The position numbers and the translations under genes are program-made. The notes below the pieces were generated by a model. It was not told where the DNA came from and did not search any database. It saw only the letters and a program-made list of their open reading frames with translations. Shown one piece after another: positions 3,448 through 39,662 of a stretch of DNA of 41,149 nucleotides. This stretch comes from a virus: the UHGV virus genome UHGV-0455966; one strand, 5' to 3'. Numbering within the stretch: position 1 is the first letter of the stretch; each line of letters starts with the position of its first letter.

Positions 3448-3653
3448 TTGTTAATCCTCAAAACTTTATGCCCGGGCGCAAAAGCACGTGTTTTGTCTTT
3501 ACTTATTCGCCACCCGTCTTTACGGGCCTCTTTTGCACAACCAGACCATGACGTACCGATATACTCACCGAAGTCTGGCACTGGATATACACCTTCCGTA
3601 CACTGGCGGCAGTCACAATAGAGATGCATGGTGTAACTTGCAGCGATAGCCAT
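3444..3653 (-). CDS. hypothetical Cys-rich small protein
   Basis: ATG at 3653 with AGGAGA RBS; MAIAASYTMHLYCDCRQCTEG... Confidence 0.5.
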   Translation of the reverse strand: MAIAASYTMHLYCDCRQCTEGVYPVPDFGEYIGTSWSGCAKEARKDGWRISKDKTRAFAPGHKVLRINK

Positions 3654-3654
3654 A

Positions 3655-4287
3655 TCACTCTCCTTTGATGCGAATGCCAGGGGCGCGTGGCACATTAACT
3701 TCCACGATGCGCACAGTTGGTTTGTACATCTCAATCGCAGTCAGCCAGTCAGCGCCAGTCATGCGCTTTTCTGCATCGCCATTAGTCCACTTAACCGGTA
3801 CACCAATAGCCTTCATCGCGATTTCTATTTCCCCGGCAATGGCGCTTTTTCCGCAACCAGTAAAACCAGATACAACGACCAGAACTTCACCTTTGGCTGG
3901 TTTTATTTCCCGCTCCTCCAGTTCAGCAATGCGCTTACTCCCATCCGAGATAACACCTTCGTAATACTCACGCTGCTCGTTGAGTTTTGATTTTGTCTCC
4001 TCAAGCTCAACTCTCAGCTTCCCAACCGTAAGCGCAATATCCTCGTTCTCCTGGTCGCGGGATTTGATGTATTGCTGGTTCCTTTCCCGTTCATCCAGTA
4101 GTGCCAGCACGGTTTCTGGTCCGGCCAGAAATTTGAAGGCGTTGAGCGCATCAATATCCACACCGTAATCTTTAAGTTCCTGTTCACTTAACAAATCATC
4201 ATCAGCTGGCAACATTAACAGGCGTTCCATTGCTGGAATTGCACGTTCCGCCGCCTCACGCAGTGCCTGGTAATTAATTTCGCTCAC
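3655..4287 (-). CDS. hypothetical coiled-coil protein with C-terminal P-loop motif
   Basis: Walker-A-like GFTGCGKS near C-terminus; N-terminal charged helical region. Confidence 0.5.
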   Translation of the reverse strand: MSEINYQALREAAERAIPAMERLLMLPADDDLLSEQELKDYGVDIDALNAFKFLAGPETVLALLDERERNQQYIKSRDQENEDIALTVGKLRVELEETKSKLNEQREYYEGVISDGSKRIAELEEREIKPAKGEVLVVVSGFTGCGKSAIAGEIEIAMKAIGVPVKWTNGDAEKRMTGADWLTAIEMYKPTVRIVEVNVPRAPGIRIKGE

Positions 4288-7917: not shown

Positions 7918-8502
7918 ATGAAAAGTATCCAGGACGTCCGCAGGCAAAATCTCAACGACTTGATCGACCGTGAATTCAATGGTGTTCAGACGCGGATGGC
8001 AGAAAAACTTGGAACTCAGGCAAATCTGGTAAACCGCTGGGCTCTTGGCAAGAAGGTTATCGGCGACCAGGTTGCACGAAAAATTGAAGCTGCCGCCAAT
8101 AAACCCCGTAACTGGCTTGATATTGATCGCTCGCTTTCTCAGGAGGGTTTTCAGCCTGTCGGCCCGAGTGATATAGGTCAGCTGGCGGCTCACAACCTGG
8201 AACGCTGGATGAGCGAAAGCCGCGACCTTTCAACGCAGGGAAAACTACACCGCGCATCCGGCGTCGCCCAGGTGACAATCAGCCGCCTGTTAAACAATGA
8301 GGTCAGCGTTTCCATTTCCACCCTGGAGAATGTTGCATCCGCATTCGGGCGTCACGGCTATGAATTACTGATTCACCCGCACGACCCTGCGACCATCAAC
8401 TATGATCGCTCGCGCTACGCATTGTTACCCGAAACCGAGAAAGCAAAGATCGAAAGTTACATTGAATTTGTCATCAACCAGAACGAAAAAAACAAACAAT
8501 AA
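7918..8502 (+). CDS. prophage repressor with two HTH domains, no S24 peptidase motif
   Basis: HTH 1 QTRMAEKLGTQANLVNRWALGKK, HTH 2 LHRASGVAQVTISRLLNNEVSVSISTLENVASAFG; no GDSM/Ser-Lys dyad region; divergent from Cro-like gene. Confidence 0.7.
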   Translation: MKSIQDVRRQNLNDLIDREFNGVQTRMAEKLGTQANLVNRWALGKKVIGDQVARKIEAAANKPRNWLDIDRSLSQEGFQPVGPSDIGQLAAHNLERWMSESRDLSTQGKLHRASGVAQVTISRLLNNEVSVSISTLENVASAFGRHGYELLIHPHDPATINYDRSRYALLPETEKAKIESYIEFVINQNEKNKQ

Positions 8503-18596: not shown

Positions 18597-18700
18597 GTTA
18601 AATCTCCAGATAGTCGCAGCACCCGTTGCGCCGCATATCTGGTTATTCTATTACCTGGAAAACCACATATGGATAGAAAGGCTGTAAATACGAATAGATA

Positions 18701-18715
18701 TTACCTTTCAGGTAA
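18701..18715. promoter_or_regulatory. palindrome TTACC-tttca-GGTAA
   Basis: Perfect 15-mer, identical to the site at 39249-39263; AACCACATA box ~32 bp upstream. Confidence 0.6.
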
Positions 18716-18752
18716 TTTGCAAAACGTGCTGGATAGCAAACAAATTATTTGC

Positions 18753-18772
18753 TACTGTATAAATATACAGTT
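18753..18772 (+). promoter_or_regulatory. LexA (SOS) box over the -10 region of the small antirepressor-like gene
   Basis: TACTGTATAAATATACAGTT = CTGT-N8-ACAG, matching the E. coli LexA consensus TACTGTATATATATACAGTA at 18 of 20 positions; 20 bp upstream of ATG 18792. Confidence 0.7.
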
Positions 18773-18791
18773 ATTGCATGGAGAAGATAAG

Positions 18792-19049
18792 ATGCAGCAG
18801 TATCACTATCCACTGGAAGACGGATTTACCGAAAGGATTCACACGCCGGGAGGCGTCAGGTCACTGGTGGAGGGATCGCACTTGATGAAATTACTCCGGG
18901 ATCTCGATAAGGATGGATTTAATGTCGATGGCCCACTTGCCGAACTGACTGCACTGATTAACTACGTCACCAGCTCACAGATGTCTATGCAGGATCTGCA
19001 AACACATCTCGACTATTGTGCCGAACAATTACGAAAACAAACCCGGTAA
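18792..19049 (+). CDS. small antirepressor-like protein (SOS-controlled candidate)
   Basis: GGAGAAG RBS; C-terminal LMKLLRDLDKDGFNVDGPLAELTALINYV...LQTHLDY matches the C-terminus of the BRO-N antirepressor at 20435-21130. Confidence 0.55.
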   Translation: MQQYHYPLEDGFTERIHTPGGVRSLVEGSHLMKLLRDLDKDGFNVDGPLAELTALINYVTSSQMSMQDLQTHLDYCAEQLRKQTR

Positions 19050-19073
19050 ATTTAAAGGCCGCAAGAGCGGCCA

Positions 19074-19580
19074 TTAACAGTCGTAAAATTCCGGGTCCCA
19101 CAAACTTGCATCGCGCGGCATGGATTCTAAATTTTTCAGCCGCAAAATTCTGTCACACTCGACAAGAAGTTTTTGTTTTTGTTCGTCAATTTCTACTTTT
19201 TTGTGTGCTGGCTCATCCCAGTAATCCAGAAGAAACGCATGTCGCTCAGACGTTACAAGATAAATCACATACACATCACTGGTTGGTATTTTTTTATGCT
19301 TGTTGGTGGTCTTGTCTTTCTTCCCGGATGCCCAGTTTTTCCAGCATTGTTCCGTACCGCTCTCACCAAACTTGTCAGTATAGTTTCCGATGTTTACGTG
19401 AACGTGGCGTATGTGATATTCCAGCATCTCTTTCGGTGGATCCCGAAACAGAGTGTCCTTTCCGAAATCCTTATGATGACCGTAGCGCCAGTGATCTATG
19501 AACGCGTTTTTGATAGGTATTAGCTCAGGGTCCTTCCCAAAAATTCCAGGGTGAACCAACCCCTGGAATTTATTCAGCAT
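19074..19580 (-). CDS. hypothetical basic protein, toxin-like candidate
   Basis: His-rich HIRHVHVN motif and Lys-rich centre; second gene of a two-gene cassette overlapping the upstream gene by 11 nt. Confidence 0.45.
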   Translation of the reverse strand: MLNKFQGLVHPGIFGKDPELIPIKNAFIDHWRYGHHKDFGKDTLFRDPPKEMLEYHIRHVHVNIGNYTDKFGESGTEQCWKNWASGKKDKTTNKHKKIPTSDVYVIYLVTSERHAFLLDYWDEPAHKKVEIDEQKQKLLVECDRILRLKNLESMPRDASLWDPEFYDC

Positions 19581-19989
19581 CGTCGTAGAGCTCCTGAGCC
19601 ATATCTTCGGCAGTGCGTGCAAACATCCTGCGCGAGATTGCATGAGATTTCTCGACGGACATCTTTGGGACCTCATGCATAACATTTTTGGGAGTTGTGT
19701 AATAGCCTATTACAATTTTCACACCTGACTTATGATTAATATCAGCATAATATACTTCTTGTTCAGACGTTTCACGACGAACATAATCTGCCAGTTTTCC
19801 ACATTTAAATTCCCCTCCCTGATGTTTTAAAATCTCCTCAACTGCACTATTTTCAGTGAAATACCGAATAAGAAATTTCTGTCCAGACTCTTCAGCATGA
19901 GGTATAACAGTATTATTGGAAGCCCGAACAATGGCCTTACTCAATATTTCATGGTCTTTATTTTTTTCTGATTTCCTCAAATGCTGCAT
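19570..19989 (-). CDS. hypothetical protein, first gene of the cassette (antitoxin-like candidate)
   Basis: ATG at 19989 with GAGAG RBS; acidic C-terminal tail AEDMAQELYDDAE. Confidence 0.4.
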   Translation of the reverse strand: MQHLRKSEKNKDHEILSKAIVRASNNTVIPHAEESGQKFLIRYFTENSAVEEILKHQGGEFKCGKLADYVRRETSEQEVYYADINHKSGVKIVIGYYTTPKNVMHEVPKMSVEKSHAISRRMFARTAEDMAQELYDDAE

Positions 19990-20150
19990 TACTGTAGCTC
20001 TCTTCGTGTTCACGGGCACCCCCAACTACCTCTAGGGTAAACATTCTATCGAAAGTATACGCATACTGGCAAAAAAATAGGCAGGTATTTTCTGAAATGG
20101 GATCAATCAAACCACATAGGGTTGAAATAACGTGAGTTATGCATTTATTA

Positions 20151-20165
20151 TTACCTTTGCGGTAA
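20151..20165. promoter_or_regulatory. palindrome TTACC-tttgc-GGTAA
   Basis: Perfect 15-mer; AACCACATA box at 20110-20118. Confidence 0.6.
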
Positions 20166-20169
20166 ATTT

Positions 20170-20277
20170 ACATCGCACTCCTCTTGTGCCATAGTAATCG
20201 GGCACTGGAAAAATCCAGTGCCGGGATTGGCGTCCCGGATTACTAAAAGGCGCATTCACCGCGCAAGCGGTTTTTTT
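20170..20277 (+). ncRNA. candidate small structured RNA / structured leader upstream of antirepressor
   Basis: Y-shaped fold: outer stem AGTAATC/GATTACT (20193-20244) enclosing hairpins GGCACTGG/CCAGTGCC and GGGA/TCCC; then CCGC-gcaa-GCGG + T7 terminator (20257-20277). Confidence 0.35.
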
Positions 20278-20434
20278 ATGCGTATAGCACGGCCACATTC
20301 GTATTATGGTGGGCTGTGTGGGGGCACCGAAAGGTGCGCCGGGTCCTTTTAGCCGGTTACGCCAACCCTGCACAGTTCACCACCAACCGATTGGCGTCGG
20401 TAGTGGTGATTAACCAGACTAAAAGGTAACCACT

Positions 20435-21130
20435 ATGACAGCTACAAAAAGCACGTCCATTTTTTCTTTCGAATCCCAAGCCGATATACGGGTAATCGTC
20501 ATTAATGGTGAGCCATGGTTTATCGCTTCAGATGTTTGTCGGGCTATAGGCATAGCAAATCATCGAGATGCTGTTCGAAAACTTGATGATGATGAGAAGG
20601 GCGTCGCTTCAACCGACACCCCTGGCGGTGAGCAAGAATCGATCATCATCTCCGAGTCAGGCCTCTACACACTGATCCTCCGCTGCCGCGACGCAGTGAC
20701 ACCAGGCACTATCCCCTACCGCTTTCGTAAATGGGTTACAGGTGAGGTTCTTCCTCAGATCCGCCGCACCGGAAGTTACATTAAAAACTCGCTCCCGCAG
20801 GAAGAACGCATAAAGATGGTTGCCGACCAGGTAGCCAACGCCACAGCATCAGCAGTGATGCAGGCAATGAAGATAGAGAACAAAACCTACAGTGCCCCAC
20901 TGAAGCCCGGCTACCGCAGCCTGATTCATTCGCCGTCTGGTGTTCTCGGCCTGACGGAGAACTCACTGCTGATGAATCTGCTGAACCAGTTACAGGAAGA
21001 CGGGCACGACGTATCGGGCGCGGCGGCGGAGCTGACCACCATGTTCTGCTACATCGTCGGTGTGAGCAAATGCCTGCGTGATATCCAGACCCACGCGGAG
21101 TACATCAACGACAAGGCAGGGTTCTTCTGA
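20435..21130 (+). CDS. BRO-N-domain antirepressor
   Basis: N-terminal FESQADIRVIVINGEPWFIASDVCRAIGIANHRDAVRKL typical of Bro-N/Ant proteins; C-terminal domain shared with 18792-19049. Confidence 0.7.
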   Translation: MTATKSTSIFSFESQADIRVIVINGEPWFIASDVCRAIGIANHRDAVRKLDDDEKGVASTDTPGGEQESIIISESGLYTLILRCRDAVTPGTIPYRFRKWVTGEVLPQIRRTGSYIKNSLPQEERIKMVADQVANATASAVMQAMKIENKTYSAPLKPGYRSLIHSPSGVLGLTENSLLMNLLNQLQEDGHDVSGAAAELTTMFCYIVGVSKCLRDIQTHAEYINDKAGFF

Positions 21131-21201
21131 CGGGCGGCGGCACAGGGATGTGCCTTTAAATAATTCTGTACGATTGCAGACTGGGGGTGAATAGCGTACT
21201 A

Positions 21202-21216
21202 TTACCTTAAAGGTAA
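21202..21216. promoter_or_regulatory. palindrome TTACC-ttaaa-GGTAA
   Basis: Perfect 15-mer about 27 bp upstream of ATG 21243. Confidence 0.6.
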
Positions 21217-21242
21217 ACCATGTGTTTACATGAGGAGGAGAT

Positions 21243-21452
21243 ATGGGATTTTGGTTCGCTCGTACAAAAACGAGGGATAATGCACCCAGCCCTCAGGCAA
21301 AAAATGCAGAAGTTCCGGCGTCAGCGCAGGTTAACAAGCGTGGTGGTGTGTATATCTCATCACAGCAAATTTCTGAGCTTCCTGAGGTTAAGGAGATGCG
21401 TCGTCTCGCTGCTGCAATCGTTAAACAGGATCTTGCCACTGTAAGGAAATAG
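21243..21452 (+). CDS. hypothetical small protein, first gene of accessory operon
   Basis: GAGGAGGAG RBS; normal GC; TAG stop overlaps GTG start of next gene. Confidence 0.5.
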   Translation: MGFWFARTKTRDNAPSPQAKNAEVPASAQVNKRGGVYISSQQISELPEVKEMRRLAAAIVKQDLATVRK

Positions 21453-22315
21453 TGTTGTTAGCTCTTCTAATTATCCCCATTCTGGTTAGTGGTTATATTA
21501 TGATAACCGCTAACCAGTATCATTATTTCCGTTTATACCGACATGAAGGCCAGCTTCTTTATATGAAAGTTGCTGCATTAGGTACATATTGCCTTGTTGC
21601 TTCGGTAATAATTGCCGCATTTATAAAATATAAATATCCTGATTTTCACCTAGTTCACGATATGGTGGAAACTTTTAATGTAACGTCAAAACCAGAAACA
21701 GATAGAATTTACATGTGGCTACTTCTTCTGTCAGTCACATCAATTTGCTTCTCTTTGTGTTATGTATCTTTTGTTTGGCTAAAAGATCTTCTTTTAGGTT
21801 GTTTTTATAAACGTGATATTTATGACAAAATATCAGAGGCAATGAAAGCTAGGGTATTGCGAAAAACGTACTCCCAGGGTTCTTTAGATTTGCTATTGCT
21901 TGATGCAATCGAATCAGATCCTAAGAAACCAATGTTAATTACTTTATCATCAAATAAAGTATACGTTGGAATAATAAATGGTTCTGGTGAGCCAACGGAA
22001 AATCAAGGGCCACACCAACACATATCTTTTGTTCCTTTAATGTCAGGGTACAGAAACAAAGAAAATTTATCTGTTACATTTACAAACGCTTACCCAGGTG
22101 AAATCCAAATTAAGCGCAGTGCTGCGATAAAAGGGATAAGCAAAAAGAAAGTTCAAGGTCTAGAAATTATGGTATCTATAGACGAAATAAGTCATATATC
22201 ATGGTTTGACTTTGAAGTATATAAGGCAACAAATAACAAAGTAGAAACAAAGGGTCATGTTGTTAATGTGACCAAAAATGGTCGCAACATATACTACAGA
22301 AGTGGCAGAAAATAA
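21452..22315 (+). CDS. AT-rich membrane protein (3 N-terminal TM helices + soluble C-domain), unknown function
   Basis: GTG start with AAGGA RBS; hydrophobic segments LLALLIIPILVSGYIMI, VAALGTYCLVASVIIAAFI, MWLLLLSVTSICFSLCYVSFVWL; sharp drop in GC at gene start. Confidence 0.6.
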   Translation: MLLALLIIPILVSGYIMITANQYHYFRLYRHEGQLLYMKVAALGTYCLVASVIIAAFIKYKYPDFHLVHDMVETFNVTSKPETDRIYMWLLLLSVTSICFSLCYVSFVWLKDLLLGCFYKRDIYDKISEAMKARVLRKTYSQGSLDLLLLDAIESDPKKPMLITLSSNKVYVGIINGSGEPTENQGPHQHISFVPLMSGYRNKENLSVTFTNAYPGEIQIKRSAAIKGISKKKVQGLEIMVSIDEISHISWFDFEVYKATNNKVETKGHVVNVTKNGRNIYYRSGRK

Positions 22316-22331
22316 ATTTTACGCAGTTTAG

Positions 22332-22844
22332 GTGGCTTATATGGATAATACTATCTTAGGCGCATTGATAGGTGCAGTTATTGCTATAGTTTCCACTTAT
22401 ATAAATGCAGGACAAGGATACAAAAACAGCATAAGATTAGAGCGACAAAAAATATTAAGGGATAAACGCGAGCAATTATTTATAAATTGTATACTTACTA
22501 AAAAAGTCATAGATTCAAGCACAATTACCATTCTCAATTTCGTAAAAAATGCCAGATACCACTCTGATAGTAAATTTGACGTATCAAGAGCGAATCCGTT
22601 GCAAACGATGGAAATGCTAATAAACATATACCTTCCTGAGTATAAAAAAGACTTACAAGAACTCAATAATGCGTATCAAGAATTTCACAAATACTACTCT
22701 CAATATACATGTGCACATACCTTCAAAAATATGCCTGATAATGAGAAGTCGAGGTTTATTGAGGAGGCTGATTTTTATGCAAAAAAGATATATGGCAAAC
22801 TTAATGATATTAAGGACAAGATATCATTAAACTCAATAGTATAA
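22332..22844 (+). CDS. AT-rich single-pass membrane protein, unknown function
   Basis: N-terminal TM ILGALIGAVIAIVSTYI then helical soluble domain; 16 bp after upstream gene. Confidence 0.6.
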   Translation: MAYMDNTILGALIGAVIAIVSTYINAGQGYKNSIRLERQKILRDKREQLFINCILTKKVIDSSTITILNFVKNARYHSDSKFDVSRANPLQTMEMLINIYLPEYKKDLQELNNAYQEFHKYYSQYTCAHTFKNMPDNEKSRFIEEADFYAKKIYGKLNDIKDKISLNSIV

Positions 22845-22925
22845 CAGCGATACTGCTGCTGACGGCTCCCGCTGCGGTGGGCGTTCTGCGGATTCCCGCC
22901 CAGGCGGCGGTGGCATTCGTTAAAA

Positions 22926-22952
22926 ACAAGGCCGCGAAAGCGGCCTGTTTGA
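22926..22952 (-). terminator. intrinsic terminator between convergent accessory genes
   Basis: GGCCGC-gaaa-GCGGCC; minus strand followed by UUGUUUUUAA. Confidence 0.55.
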
Positions 22953-23804
22953 TCACTGTGCAGTTTTCGCTGATCGATTTTCAGCTCTAAATTCAAGAAC
23001 CGTTTCAATATTTCTTTCCTTCAGCATATCAATAACATTTTTATTCATTTGACTATCACTGGTTAATAACTGGTAAACGTTGCTTCTCTCTTTATCAGAG
23101 TTTTCTTTAACAGCTGCTTTGCATGCCAAATGCTTATTGAAATTTTCTACATCGCTAGTACAGGAATTTACGGCTGCTGATGAAATATCAGACGCTGAAG
23201 AAACACCATCATCCAAACGTTTTATAGCATTTTCTATACATGAGTTAAGGGAATAAACGACAACTGAGCGATACCCTTCAGACGCACACCATTCTAAATT
23301 TCTTGAAGGATCGAGTGGTTTTACTTCGCTGGATTGAATTAACTTGTCAAAAACTGACTTATATTCAATCTGTTTTTTATCTATAGCCCATACTTCAGTA
23401 GCTGATTTATAATTCCCCGTATGCCTATTAACATCAAATCCATGTTTTATAAGCAAATCTGCCCATGAAAGATTTATTGATTCATTGTTATGAGGCCATT
23501 TTCCTGTCAGAACCGCCCCCATAGACCCCATATATCCGCCATATGATGGTATAGCACCATGGCTCAGTAACTTCTCAGCAACCACAGGGCAATTAATTAC
23601 ATAAGAGGCGTAAAGCCCATTCCATAAAGCCCCTCTATAGTAATCGCCACGATTAGGTTCTTTTAAGTCGATAGCCTTTGATAATTGTTCACACGTTTTG
23701 CATGCATCAAAGTTATCCTTATTGCATTGCAATGAACTGGCAGCTGTAGGATTTACAGAGACTATTGAAAGCACTATGCCAAAAAACAAATTTATTTTTT
23801 TCAT
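22953..23804 (-). CDS. AT-rich secreted Cys-containing protein, unknown function
   Basis: Signal-peptide-like MKKINLFFGIVLSIVSVNPTAASS; multiple Cys; start 1 nt after stop of upstream virion gene. Confidence 0.6.
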   Translation of the reverse strand: MKKINLFFGIVLSIVSVNPTAASSLQCNKDNFDACKTCEQLSKAIDLKEPNRGDYYRGALWNGLYASYVINCPVVAEKLLSHGAIPSYGGYMGSMGAVLTGKWPHNNESINLSWADLLIKHGFDVNRHTGNYKSATEVWAIDKKQIEYKSVFDKLIQSSEVKPLDPSRNLEWCASEGYRSVVVYSLNSCIENAIKRLDDGVSSASDISSAAVNSCTSDVENFNKHLACKAAVKENSDKERSNVYQLLTSDSQMNKNVIDMLKERNIETVLEFRAENRSAKTAQ

Positions 23805-39585: not shown

Positions 39586-39662
39586 GTGGCATTAGCTCAG
39601 TTGGACAGAGCAACCGCCTTCTAAGCGGTTGGTCGCAGGTTCGAATCCTGCATGCCGCGCCA
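39586..39662 (+). tRNA. tRNA-Arg (anticodon UCU)
   Basis: Hand-folded cloverleaf: acceptor GTGGCAT/ATGCCGC, D-stem GCTC/GAGC, anticodon stem ACCGC/GCGGT with loop CUUCUAA, T-arm GCAGG-TTCGAAT-CCTGC, discriminator G, encoded CCA. Confidence 0.85.

What the first reader, a model, noticed from the sequence alone, without database searches (positions are those of the whole stretch)
18701..19049. LexA-box-controlled small gene sharing a C-terminal domain with the BRO-N antirepressor
A near-consensus SOS box TACTGTATAAATATACAGTT (18753-18772) overlaps a TATAAAT -10-like element 20 bp upstream of an 85-aa ORF. Its C-terminus aligns with the C-terminus of the 231-aa Bro-N protein at 20435-21130 (L.M.LL..L..DG..V.G..AEL......Y.......L.D.QTH..Y). 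With a repressor that lacks an autocleavage domain, this fits SOS-triggered induction through a host-LexA-controlled antirepressor.
Basis: partly seen in the sequence, partly recalled or inferred. Interest (0 to 1): 0.6.

Follow-up and report, generated by a model that had tools for sequence, protein, structure and literature searches.

The report
SOS-controlled phage antirepressor gene (ant)
This is the E. coli-phage copy of a switch already worked out in Salmonella phage SPC32H: DNA damage removes the host protein LexA from a small phage gene, and that gene's product then disables the phage repressor and wakes the dormant phage.

Summary

- **Setting.** The window is an epsilon15/phiV10-like (Uetakevirus) E. 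coli phage genome.
- **LexA box.** TACTGTATAAATATACAGTT (18753-18772) is the only site in 41 kb within 3 mismatches of the 20-mer LexA consensus (0 of 100 shuffles).
- **The gene.** The box lies 19 nt upstream of an 85-aa ORF (18792-19049). That ORF is 88% identical to Ant of Salmonella phage SPC32H (PDB 5D50 chain E, E=4e-47).
- **Published mutation.** SPC32N differs from SPC32H by a C-to-A change in this same box. As I recall the 2013 abstract, that mutation makes ant constitutive.
- **Conservation.** The box is kept at a fixed distance in all 17 ant loci examined.
- **Repressor.** It is at 7918-8502: full-length homologue of SPC32H Rep (42% identity), HTH domains only, no S24 autocleavage domain.
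- **Bro-N protein.** The 231-aa protein (20435-21130) does carry an Ant-like C-terminal domain (42% identity, E=8e-16). It is 100% identical to the overexpression-tested anti-repressor of phage vB_EcoP_ZX5.

New context:
- The Bro-N gene has no LexA box. An isrK/C4 antisense-RNA leader precedes it.
- A conserved palindrome, ATTACC-N5-GGTAAT, lies upstream of both genes and is probably the Rep operator.

Novelty: already known. Interest: low.

The parts
18700..18716 (.). Perfect inverted repeat ATTACCTTTCAGGTAAT, a probable Rep operator, lying between the divergent tailspike and ant genes
   Evidence: The motif ATTACC-N5-GGTAAT (up to 2 mismatches) occurs 17 times in the window against 1.47 expected, 0 of 100 shuffles. 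It lies 73-76 nt from the ant ATG in 17 of 17 loci, with a variable N5 spacer. The orthologous site in epsilon15 is annotated 'protein_bind: repressor, lysogeny'. Copies flank rep on both sides in SPC32H, epsilon15 and the window.
18727..18736 (+). Conserved block TGCTGGATAG. It contains TGGATA (18730-18735), the best -35 candidate for the ant promoter, 17 nt upstream of TACTGT (18753-18758)
   Evidence: The block is largely conserved across the 9 aligned phages. The promoter assignment is my inference and was not called by the consensus scan.
18753..18772 (.). LexA (SOS) box TACTGTATAAATATACAGTT
   Evidence: The box sits at the orthologous position in 17 of 17 loci; TGT and ATACAG are invariant while spacer positions 7-12 vary. 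The SPC32N mutation lies in the orthologous box.
18758..18764 (+).
   Evidence: Present but not conserved in SPC32H, epsilon15 or phiV10.
18780..18783 (+). Shine-Dalgarno sequence GGAG, 8 nt before the ATG
   Evidence: GGAG is present in 16 of 17 loci; L015 has GGAA.
18792..19049 (+). ant: the 85-aa antirepressor
   Evidence: 88% identical to SPC32H Ant. PDB 5D50_E E=4.1e-47. PHROG 450 E=9e-48. The longer 126-aa reading from ATG 18669 is not conserved: most loci have a stop 6 codons upstream.
19057..19072 (.). GC hairpin GGCCGCAAGAGCGGCC between the convergent ant and YafO-like genes. A T-run follows it only on the minus strand
   Evidence: epsilon15 annotates a rho-independent terminator at the equivalent place.
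7918..8502 (+). rep: the 194-aa non-cleavable repressor, the presumed target of Ant
   Evidence: 42% identical over its full length to SPC32H Rep. PDB 5D50_A E=4e-42. Pfam finds HTH_3 and related families only, no S24. 100% identical to the repressors of phiV10 and ZX5.
20150..20166 (.). Rep-operator-like repeat ATTACCTTTGCGGTAAA. It overlaps one promoter-like site (TTGAAA-18-TATTAT, 20122-20151) and abuts another (TTTACA-17-CATAGT, 20167-20195) upstream of isrK
20202..20277 (+). IsrK-type sRNA / leader RNA
   Evidence: Rfam RF01394, 76.7 bits against a gathering score of 50.
20302..20387 (+). C4-type antisense RNA
   Evidence: Rfam RF01695, 77.7 bits against a gathering score of 45.
20419..20431 (+). 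CTAAAAGGTAACC in the translation-initiation region of the Bro-N gene. It is complementary to CCTTTTAG (20345-20352) and GGTTAC (20355-20360) in C4
   Evidence: Duplex energy is -36.1 kcal/mol against -20.9 +/- 3.8 for 500 shuffled targets, with none reaching the observed value.
20435..21130 (+). Second antirepressor: Bro-N domain (residues 17-107) fused to an Ant-like C-terminal domain (about residues 148-231)
   Evidence: Pfam Bro-N E=2.3e-21. C-terminal domain 42% identical to Ant. 231/231 identical to ZX5 ORF4, whose overexpression lowered lysogeny about 1000-fold (PMC9782041).

Best explanation
The locus is the SOS-sensing arm of the lysis-lysogeny switch of a Uetakevirus (epsilon15/phiV10-type) E. 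coli phage, orthologous to the ant-rep system of Salmonella phage SPC32H.

Proposed mechanism:
1. In a lysogen, host LexA binds the box at 18753-18772. The box overlaps the ant promoter / transcription-start region, so ant stays silent.
2. The phage repressor Rep (7918-8502) has no autocleavage domain and holds the lytic genes off.
3. DNA damage activates RecA, LexA cleaves itself, and ant is transcribed.
4. The 85-aa Ant binds Rep, breaks up the DNA-binding Rep tetramer, and lytic growth starts.

Shown here: sequence orthology of Ant and Rep, the position and conservation of the box, and the absence of an S24 domain.

Inferred by homology: LexA binding, Ant-Rep binding, and the resulting induction.

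More tentative inferences:
- A conserved palindrome 37 nt upstream of the box (18700-18716) is probably a Rep operator.
- A paralogous Bro-N::Ant-like antirepressor 1.4 kb downstream responds to different inputs: an isrK/C4 RNA leader and a Rep-operator-like site.
For: - Ant homology: 88% identity to the gene annotated ant in SPC32H and SPC32N. phmmer to PDB 5D50 chain E 'Anti-repressor protein' gives E=4.1e-47.
- Rep homology: PDB 5D50 chain A 'Repressor' E=4e-42, covering residues 1-190. No S24 domain.
- LexA box: unique in the window. It lies 17-23 nt (mostly 19) upstream of the ATG in 17 of 17 loci from 9 phages and 8 enterobacterial species. Half-sites are invariant and the spacer varies.
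- SPC32H and SPC32N differ at two positions in 1049 nt; one is C-to-A in the CAG of this box.
- Same gene order as SPC32H: the tailspike gene is divergent from ant.
- Ant and Rep occur in essentially the same set of about 35 phage records.
- Literature: LexA-dependent Ant synthesis (PMC7380047). The Ant tetramer binds two Rep dimers and breaks the Rep tetramer (PMC9638917; bioRxiv 10.1101/2025.11.27.690993).
Against: - No experiment exists on this phage's small ant. The closest studied E. coli relative, ZX5, has 100% identical Ant, Rep and Bro-N proteins, but only the Bro-N protein was tested.
- Rep is only 42% identical to SPC32H Rep while Ant is 88% identical. Retention of the Ant-Rep interface is assumed, not shown.
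- The promoter could not be located with confidence.
- The two primary SPC32H papers (Kim & Ryu 2013; Kim et al. 2016) were not available to read. Details of their results rest on secondary citations and my own recollection.
Confidence: 0.9

Rival explanations
1. The Bro-N::Ant-like protein (20435-21130), not the small Ant, is the antirepressor that matters for induction in the E. coli phages. The small gene would be accessory or redundant.
For: The identical protein of ZX5 (231/231) lowered lysogen numbers about 1000-fold and reduced repressor transcript by 75% when overexpressed (PMC9782041). It carries the same Ant-like domain.
Against: - It has no LexA box. The nearest core-like site, 20314-20329, has a mismatch and a GC-rich spacer and lies inside the C4 RNA.
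- It is absent from SPC32H, SPN1S and epsilon15.
- It is frameshifted in phiV10.
- The small ant with its box is present in every locus.
- The two roles are not mutually exclusive.
Confidence: 0.1
2. The small Ant acts mainly in trans on repressors of other co-resident prophages, or on a Rep of another immunity type, rather than on this phage's own Rep.
For: Ant is far more conserved (88%) than Rep (42%) between the E. coli and Salmonella groups. Trans-acting antirepressors are documented for the Gifsy and Fels-2 prophages (PMC7380047).
Against: Ant and this Rep family co-occur one-to-one in the phage collection. The Ant-like domain was found only in records that also carry Rep. Cross-reaction would add to, not replace, action on the cognate Rep.
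Confidence: 0.07
3. The palindrome is a chance LexA-like sequence, or it controls the divergent tailspike gene rather than the small ORF.
For: The loose core pattern CTGT-N8-ACAG is not enriched in the window. The box lies in a 195-nt region shared by two divergent genes.
Against: - The 20-mer match is unique, with none in 100 shuffles.
- Its distance to the ant ATG is fixed in 17 of 17 loci.
- It lies about 157 nt from the tailspike start codon.
- The SPC32N mutation in the same box is, as I recall the 2013 abstract, the one reported to derepress ant.
Confidence: 0.02
4. The real product is the longer 126-aa ORF starting at ATG 18669, which would read through the palindromes.
For: The frame is open from 18669. 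Automatic gene calls of 126-127 aa are common in public data, for example one cluster with 833 members.
Against: - The upstream frame is closed 0-13 codons before the ATG in 13 of 17 loci.
- Upstream conservation is in blocks (palindromes), not codon-like.
- GGAG precedes ATG 18792.
- The annotated and crystallised SPC32H protein is 86 aa.
Confidence: 0.01

Closest known systems
Ant-Rep-LexA switch of Salmonella phage SPC32H/SPN1S (Kim & Ryu 2013, J Virol 87:11775; Kim et al. 2016, PNAS 113:E2480; PDB 5D50, 5D4Z)
   Same: - Same genus (Uetakevirus).
- Ant 88% identical and the same length.
- LexA box at the same distance from the start codon.
- Same tailspike-ant divergent arrangement.
- Homologous two-domain Rep without an S24 domain.
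- Same upstream ATTACC-N5-GGTAAT palindrome.
   Different: - Rep is only 42% identical, so it represents a different Rep group.
- The box spacer differs (ATAAATAT versus ATGTTTAT).
- This phage also has a YafO-like cassette and an isrK/C4/Bro-N::Ant-like module downstream of ant. SPC32H lacks both.
Anti-repressor ORF4 of E. coli phage vB_EcoP_ZX5 (PMC9782041)
   Same: ZX5 has 100% identical Bro-N protein, small Ant and Rep. It has the same isrK/C4 leader.
   Different: That study tested only the Bro-N protein. It did not mention the small ant (annotated hypothetical), the RNA leader or LexA: the search found no occurrence of the term 'LexA' in that paper, and none of the 'SOS' passages shown concerned ant. 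ZX5 lacks the YafO-like insert between ant and isrK.
Tum of coliphage 186, the Gifsy antirepressors (GfoA, GfhA) and N15 AntC: other LexA-controlled antirepressors of non-cleavable repressors
   Same: Same logic: a LexA box on the promoter of a small antirepressor gene, whose product inactivates the repressor by binding (PMC7380047; my own knowledge for N15).
   Different: No sequence relation was detected. Pfam finds no DinI/Tum-type or other family in the 85-aa protein. From my memory of its abstract, the 2013 paper described Ant as structurally distinct from those antirepressors.
Phage P1/P7 immI (c4 antisense RNA - icd - ant) and Gifsy-1 isrK-orf45-anrP (PMC4825925)
   Same: This comparison concerns the neighbouring Bro-N gene.
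- A C4-family RNA and an IsrK-family RNA lie in the leader of an antirepressor gene.
- The C4 loop is complementary to that gene's ribosome-binding region.
- A 44-aa ORF (20218-20352) overlaps the RNAs, like orf45 in Gifsy-1.
   Different: - The effector domain is the Uetakevirus Ant-like domain rather than a P1 Ant.
- There is no icd.
- A Rep-operator-like site sits at the promoter.
- This module does not apply to the small LexA-controlled ant itself.
Phage P22 immI (ant, arc, mnt, sar), next to the tailspike gene
   Same: An antirepressor locus placed beside the tailspike gene of a short-tailed temperate phage (from my own knowledge of the P22 map).
   Different: P22 ant is controlled by Mnt, Arc and sar RNA, not by LexA. 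P22 c2 repressor is RecA-cleavable. No KilAC/ANT domain is present here.

Membership tests
SPC32H-type Ant (Uetakevirus LexA-controlled antirepressor) | Sequence homology to SPC32H Ant over the full length, as a stand-alone protein of about 86 aa | tested here: met
   88% identity over residues 2-84. PDB 5D50_E E=4.1e-47. 85 aa.
SPC32H-type Ant (Uetakevirus LexA-controlled antirepressor) | LexA box overlapping the ant promoter, at the position mutated in SPC32N | tested here: met
   The box at 18753-18772 aligns column for column with the SPC32H box. The SPC32N C-to-A change falls in it. It is conserved in 17 of 17 loci. The promoter itself was not mapped.
SPC32H-type Ant (Uetakevirus LexA-controlled antirepressor) | Cognate Rep: a two-domain HTH repressor without a RecA-dependent autocleavage domain | tested here: met
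   Rep at 7918-8502. PDB 5D50_A E=4e-42 over residues 1-190. Pfam HTH families only.
SPC32H-type Ant (Uetakevirus LexA-controlled antirepressor) | Same genomic place: divergent from the tailspike gene in an epsilon15-like genome | tested here: met
   Synteny with SPC32H, and with phiV10 and epsilon15.
SPC32H-type Ant (Uetakevirus LexA-controlled antirepressor) | LexA binds the box, and ant is induced by DNA damage in a LexA-cleavage-dependent way | not testable with these tools
   Needs EMSA or footprinting, and reporter assays in lexA+ and lexA(Ind-) hosts.
SPC32H-type Ant (Uetakevirus LexA-controlled antirepressor) | Ant binds Rep and releases it from operator DNA | not testable with these tools
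   Only homology is available. Rep is 42% identical to the crystallised partner.
Tum / DinI-related antirepressors (coliphage 186, Fels-2) | Recognisable DinI-like or Tum-family sequence | tested here: not met
   Pfam scan of the 85-aa protein at E up to 1 returned only a sub-threshold DUF724 hit. NCBIfam returned nothing. No direct comparison with the Tum sequence was made.
P22-type Ant / KilAC (Pfam ANT) antirepressors | KilAC/ANT C-terminal domain | tested here: not met
   The only Pfam match for the 231-aa protein is Bro-N, and there is none above threshold for the 85-aa protein.
P1 immI / Gifsy-1 isrK-anrP type RNA-controlled antirepressor module (applies to the Bro-N gene only) | C4-family antisense RNA, with IsrK, in the leader of the antirepressor gene | tested here: met
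   Rfam C4 77.7 bits and isrK 76.7 bits, both above gathering scores. The same pair precedes the Bro-N::Ant-like gene in phiV10, ZX5 and 5 genome loci.
P1 immI / Gifsy-1 isrK-anrP type RNA-controlled antirepressor module (applies to the Bro-N gene only) | Antisense RNA complementary to the ribosome-binding region of the downstream gene | tested here: met
   CCTTTTAG/GGTTAC in C4 pair with CTAAAAGGTAACC at 20419-20431. The duplex is more stable than all 500 shuffled targets. Regulation itself was not tested.

The most novel reading that the evidence does not exclude
The phage carries two antirepressors built on one Rep-binding (Ant) domain, each wired to a different input.
- The stand-alone Ant reads host DNA damage through LexA.
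- The Bro-N::Ant-like fusion is gated by an isrK/C4 antisense-RNA leader and a Rep-operator-like site.

Both promoter regions have an ATTACC-N5-GGTAAT palindrome, the probable Rep operator. If Rep binds there, the first Ant molecules would relieve Rep control of both genes and lock in induction through positive feedback.

This tandem ant - isrK - C4 - broN::ant arrangement recurs in E. coli, Citrobacter, Klebsiella, Erwinia, Superficieibacter and Scandinavium prophages. My literature searches found no description of it.
Probability: 0.45. Interest if true: 0.4.

Novelty: already known. Interest (0 to 1): 0.2.

Why it matters
It matters mainly for annotation.

- **Annotation gap.** The locus is present in 531 of 5426 complete E. 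coli genomes. The records examined label the gene 'hypothetical protein', and automatic gene calls often give it as a 126-aa artefact. Its function can be transferred with confidence from SPC32H.
- **Practical consequence.** These prophages should be inducible by SOS-triggering antibiotics without repressor cleavage.
- **What remains open.** The modest scientific interest lies in the context. A second, RNA-gated antirepressor shares the same effector domain, and probable Rep operators sit at both genes. That would make a two-input induction circuit, which has not been tested.

Tried and rejected
- **Primary papers.** I could not read Kim & Ryu 2013 by DOI or PMC id, Kim et al. 2016, or the epsilon15 genome paper; none is held. 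I used GenBank annotations, PDB matches and secondary citations instead.
- **Promoter scan.** The consensus scan found no sigma-70-like site at the LexA box. My -35/-10 proposal (TGGATA-17-TACTGT) rests on conservation alone.
- **Other LexA sites.** Two other perfect CTGT-N8-ACAG cores (35236, 39778) have GC-rich spacers and poor flanks, and are within chance expectation. I rejected them as LexA sites.
- **LexA control of the Bro-N gene.** The only core-like site upstream (20314-20329) lies inside the C4 RNA and has a mismatch. Rejected.
- **Accessory genes.** Pfam, NCBIfam and PADLOC found no family for the accessory genes around the locus.
- **Protein database searches.** They were limited by word matching. 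The search with Ant returned only close stand-alone homologues. The search with the Bro-N C-terminal domain returned 22 mostly short or partial proteins. I could not survey the full range of architectures carrying the Ant-like domain.
- **Structure prediction.** Not run. The 88% identity to a solved structure made it unnecessary.

Full report
**What the window is**

The 41,149-bp window is an epsilon15/phiV10-like short-tailed temperate phage genome (genus Uetakevirus) of E. coli.
- The 500 bp around the finding match 16 phage records at 95-100% identity: phiV10, TL-2011b, vB_EcoP_ZX5, phiv142-3 and others.
- SPC32H proteins map along the whole window in conserved order.
- Integrase (12563-13804), the attP region and the lysis genes are contiguous, and the window begins inside the large terminase gene. 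It is therefore the phage form rather than an integrated prophage with host flanks.

**Checking the observation**

- TACTGTATAAATATACAGTT lies at 18753-18772.
- It matches the 20-mer LexA consensus at 18 of 20 positions. It is the only site in the window within 3 mismatches, with none in 100 shuffles.
- The looser core CTGT-N8-ACAG with one mismatch is not enriched (20 found, 14.3 expected). The case rests on the full site and on conservation.
- The ATG at 18792 follows the box by 19 nt and is preceded by GGAG. The ORF ends at 19049 and encodes 85 aa.
- The alignment with the 231-aa Bro-N protein is real: 42% identity over 74 ungapped residues, E=8e-16. It covers nearly all of the small protein. 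PHROG 450 matches both proteins.
- TATAAAT is present at 18758-18764 but is not conserved in relatives.

**What the small gene is**

- A translated search of 50,697 phage records found the small protein in 35 records, all epsilon15-like phages of Escherichia, Salmonella, Enterobacter and Klebsiella.
- In SPC32H and SPC32N the matching gene (88% identity) is annotated 'ant: anti-repressor protein'.
- The protein matches PDB 5D50 chain E, 'Anti-repressor protein', at E=4.1e-47.
- The neighbourhood is the same as in SPC32H: ant is divergent from the tailspike gene across a ~195-nt intergenic region.

Aligning that region shows the SPC32H box TACTGTATGTTTATACAGT in the same columns as the window's box. 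SPC32N differs from SPC32H at only two positions in the 1049 nt examined. One is C-to-A in the CAG half-site of this box. As I recall the abstract of Kim & Ryu (2013), the two phages differ by two nucleotides, and a single change in the LexA site makes Ant constitutive. I could not read that paper. Papers I could read say the following:
- Ant is made after LexA self-cleavage and inhibits the repressor by protein contact (PMC7380047).

**Conservation of the control region**

I compared 17 ant loci: 9 phages and 8 representative genomes of Citrobacter, Erwinia, Superficieibacter, Pseudocitrobacter, Scandinavium, Klebsiella and Buttiauxella.
- Every locus has a LexA-type box 17-23 nt (mostly 19) upstream of the ATG.
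- Among 13 distinct box sequences, TGT and ATACAG are invariant while spacer positions 7-12 vary. This is the pattern expected of a protein-binding palindrome under selection.
- The Klebsiella-type and Superficieibacter boxes have ATGT in place of CTGT, which may weaken them.
- The longer 126-aa reading frame from ATG 18669 is closed by a stop 0-13 codons upstream in 13 of 17 loci, so it is a gene-calling artefact.

**The repressor**

- SPC32H Rep matches the window at 7918-8487 (42% identity, full length). The ORF is 7918-8502, 194 aa, divergent from a Cro-like gene.
- It matches PDB 5D50 chain A 'Repressor' at E=4e-42.
- Pfam finds only HTH-type families and no S24 peptidase domain.
- It is 100% identical to the repressors of phiV10 and ZX5.
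- Ant and Rep occur in essentially the same set of phage records.
- Ant is much better conserved than Rep between the E. coli and Salmonella groups (88% versus 42%). This leaves open whether Ant recognises a conserved Rep surface and can act across Rep types.

**How it most likely works**

In the lysogen, LexA sits on the box, which overlaps the ant promoter or start site. Rep, which cannot cleave itself, keeps the lytic genes off. DNA damage leads to LexA self-cleavage and ant transcription. Ant then binds Rep and releases it from DNA.
- Shown here: orthology of both proteins, position and conservation of the box, and absence of a cleavage domain.
- Taken over from SPC32H by homology: LexA binding, the Ant-Rep contact and induction.

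I could not place the promoter firmly. The consensus scan finds none. The best conserved candidate is TGGATA (18730-18735), 17 nt, TACTGT (18753-18758), which puts the -10 in the left half of the box.

*A probable Rep operator.*
- The finding's left edge contains a perfect palindrome, ATTACCTTTCAGGTAAT (18700-18716).
- The motif ATTACC-N5-GGTAAT occurs 17 times in the window against 1.5 expected.
- It lies 73-76 nt from the ant ATG in all 17 loci, with a variable spacer.
- It flanks rep on both sides in the window, SPC32H and epsilon15.
- The epsilon15 record annotates it as a repressor-binding site.
- It is therefore probably the Rep operator. Its position between the ant and tailspike genes suggests Rep also acts on one or both of these promoters.

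*The Bro-N gene is RNA-controlled, not LexA-controlled.*
- Rfam finds an IsrK RNA (20202-20277) and a C4 antisense RNA (20302-20387) directly upstream of it, both well above gathering scores.
- The C4 loop is complementary to CTAAAAGGTAACC, just before the Bro-N start codon.
- This is the arrangement known from phage P1 immI (my own knowledge) and from Gifsy-1 isrK-orf45-anrP (PMC4825925).
- A Rep-operator-like site (20150-20166) sits at the promoter-like sequences upstream.

*How widespread the Bro-N module is.*
- The same isrK-C4-Bro-N::Ant-like module follows ant in phiV10, ZX5 and five of the eight genome loci.
- In the window, a YafO-like cassette has been inserted between ant and this module.
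- The RNA leader is shared with more than 100 Stx phages.
- The Ant-like C-terminal domain is confined to phage records that also carry Rep. This fits a specificity domain matched to the repressor.

*Experimental support for the Bro-N protein.*
- It is 231/231 identical to ORF4 of ZX5.
- Overexpressing ORF4 lowered lysogen numbers about 1000-fold (PMC9782041).
- The passages of that paper that I read do not mention the small ant or the RNA leader, and a term search found no occurrence of 'LexA' in it.

**Comparison with known systems, and verdict**

- The locus meets every sequence-testable criterion for the SPC32H Ant family. The biochemical criteria cannot be tested here.
- It works like coliphage 186 Tum and the Gifsy antirepressors. 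No sequence similarity to them was detected: Pfam found no DinI/Tum-type family, and I made no direct comparison with the Tum sequence.
Novelty: already known. Interest: low.
- The residual interest is the apparent two-input design: two antirepressors sharing one effector domain, under LexA and under isrK/C4 respectively, each with a probable Rep operator. I did not find this described.
- There is also an annotation gap. The locus occurs in 531 of 5426 complete E. coli genomes, labelled 'hypothetical protein' in the records examined.

Noticed in passing
window 1649, 1667, 5454, 5516, 7462, 7847, 8559, 8621, 13846, 18700, 20025, 20150, 21201, 39248, 39865 (17-bp sites): The palindrome ATTACC-N5-GGTAAT is dispersed through the genome: 17 sites with up to 2 mismatches against 1.5 expected. 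It sits in front of most transcription units and on both sides of rep. The same motif occupies the same places in SPC32H and epsilon15, where GenBank calls it a repressor site. This suggests one repressor directly controls many operons, late ones included, as C1 does in phage P1.
   Followed up: partly
window 20202-20277 and 20302-20387 (+): IsrK and C4 antisense RNA genes form the leader of the Bro-N antirepressor gene. C4 is complementary to that gene's ribosome-binding region (20419-20431) and to CTAAAAGG inside IsrK (20243-20250). A 44-aa ORF (20218-20352) overlaps them, like orf45 of Gifsy-1. In ZX5 this stretch is annotated as an 'ash family protein' CDS, probably a mis-call of the RNA region.
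   Followed up: partly
window 19074-20025 (-): A two-gene cassette has been inserted between ant and the isrK/C4 module and is absent from ZX5, SPC32H and epsilon15. RefSeq labels the distal gene 'type II toxin-antitoxin system YafO family toxin' in APEC O18 and TL-2011b, yet Pfam, NCBIfam and PADLOC gave no hit in my scans. It has a strong promoter-like site (TTGCCA-18-TAGAAT, 20072-20043) followed by a Rep-operator-like site (20025-20041).
   Followed up: partly
window 21243-23804: Four accessory ORFs (69, 287, 170 and 283 aa) lie between the Bro-N gene and the large virion-protein gene. None matches a family in NCBIfam or PADLOC. Relatives carry different content at this place, so it looks like a variable cargo (moron) region. 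A Rep-operator-like site at 21201-21217 precedes it.
   Followed up: partly
L003 (phiV10) 3571-4250 versus window 20435-21130: In phiV10 and the O157 typing phages 9 and 10, the Bro-N antirepressor gene is broken inside the Ant-like domain. It is annotated as a 194-aa protein plus a 29-aa ORF, and matches in two pieces. These phages therefore probably rely on the small Ant alone.
   Followed up: partly
L008, L009, L010, L019 (Klebsiella) and L016 (Superficieibacter), about 18 nt upstream of ant: The LexA box in these loci has ATGT instead of CTGT in the left half-site. That is a change at a position normally essential for LexA binding, comparable in kind to the SPC32N mutation. These prophages may have leakier ant expression and higher spontaneous induction.
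   Followed up: no
window 18792-19049 versus 7918-8502: The antirepressor is much more conserved than its presumed target between the E. coli and Salmonella phage groups: Ant 88% identity against Rep 42% (54% in residues 1-70, 28-43% elsewhere). This hints that Ant binds a conserved Rep surface and may cross-induce phages carrying diverged Reps.
   Followed up: partly
window 18669-19049 (+): Public gene calls often give this gene as a 126-127 aa protein starting at ATG 18669; one such cluster has 833 member sequences. That extension reads through the palindromes and is closed by stop codons in most relatives, so it is an annotation artefact.
   Followed up: yes
window 18597-19075: The ant locus is present in 531 of 5426 complete E. 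coli genomes at 90% identity or more in almost all. The gene is annotated 'hypothetical protein' in the records listed.
   Followed up: partly
window 39586-39662 (+): A tRNA-Arg (anticodon TCT) gene lies next to the portal/terminase region. SPC32H also carries a tRNA-Arg gene in its terminase-portal region.
   Followed up: no
P0121: One partial E. coli protein joins the Ant-like C-terminal domain (96% identical to the window's Bro-N C-terminus) to an AntA (PF08346) domain. Stand-alone forms of about 95 aa of the Bro-N-type domain also exist in Raoultella and Klebsiella. The domain therefore seems to be shuffled among different N-terminal partners.
   Followed up: no
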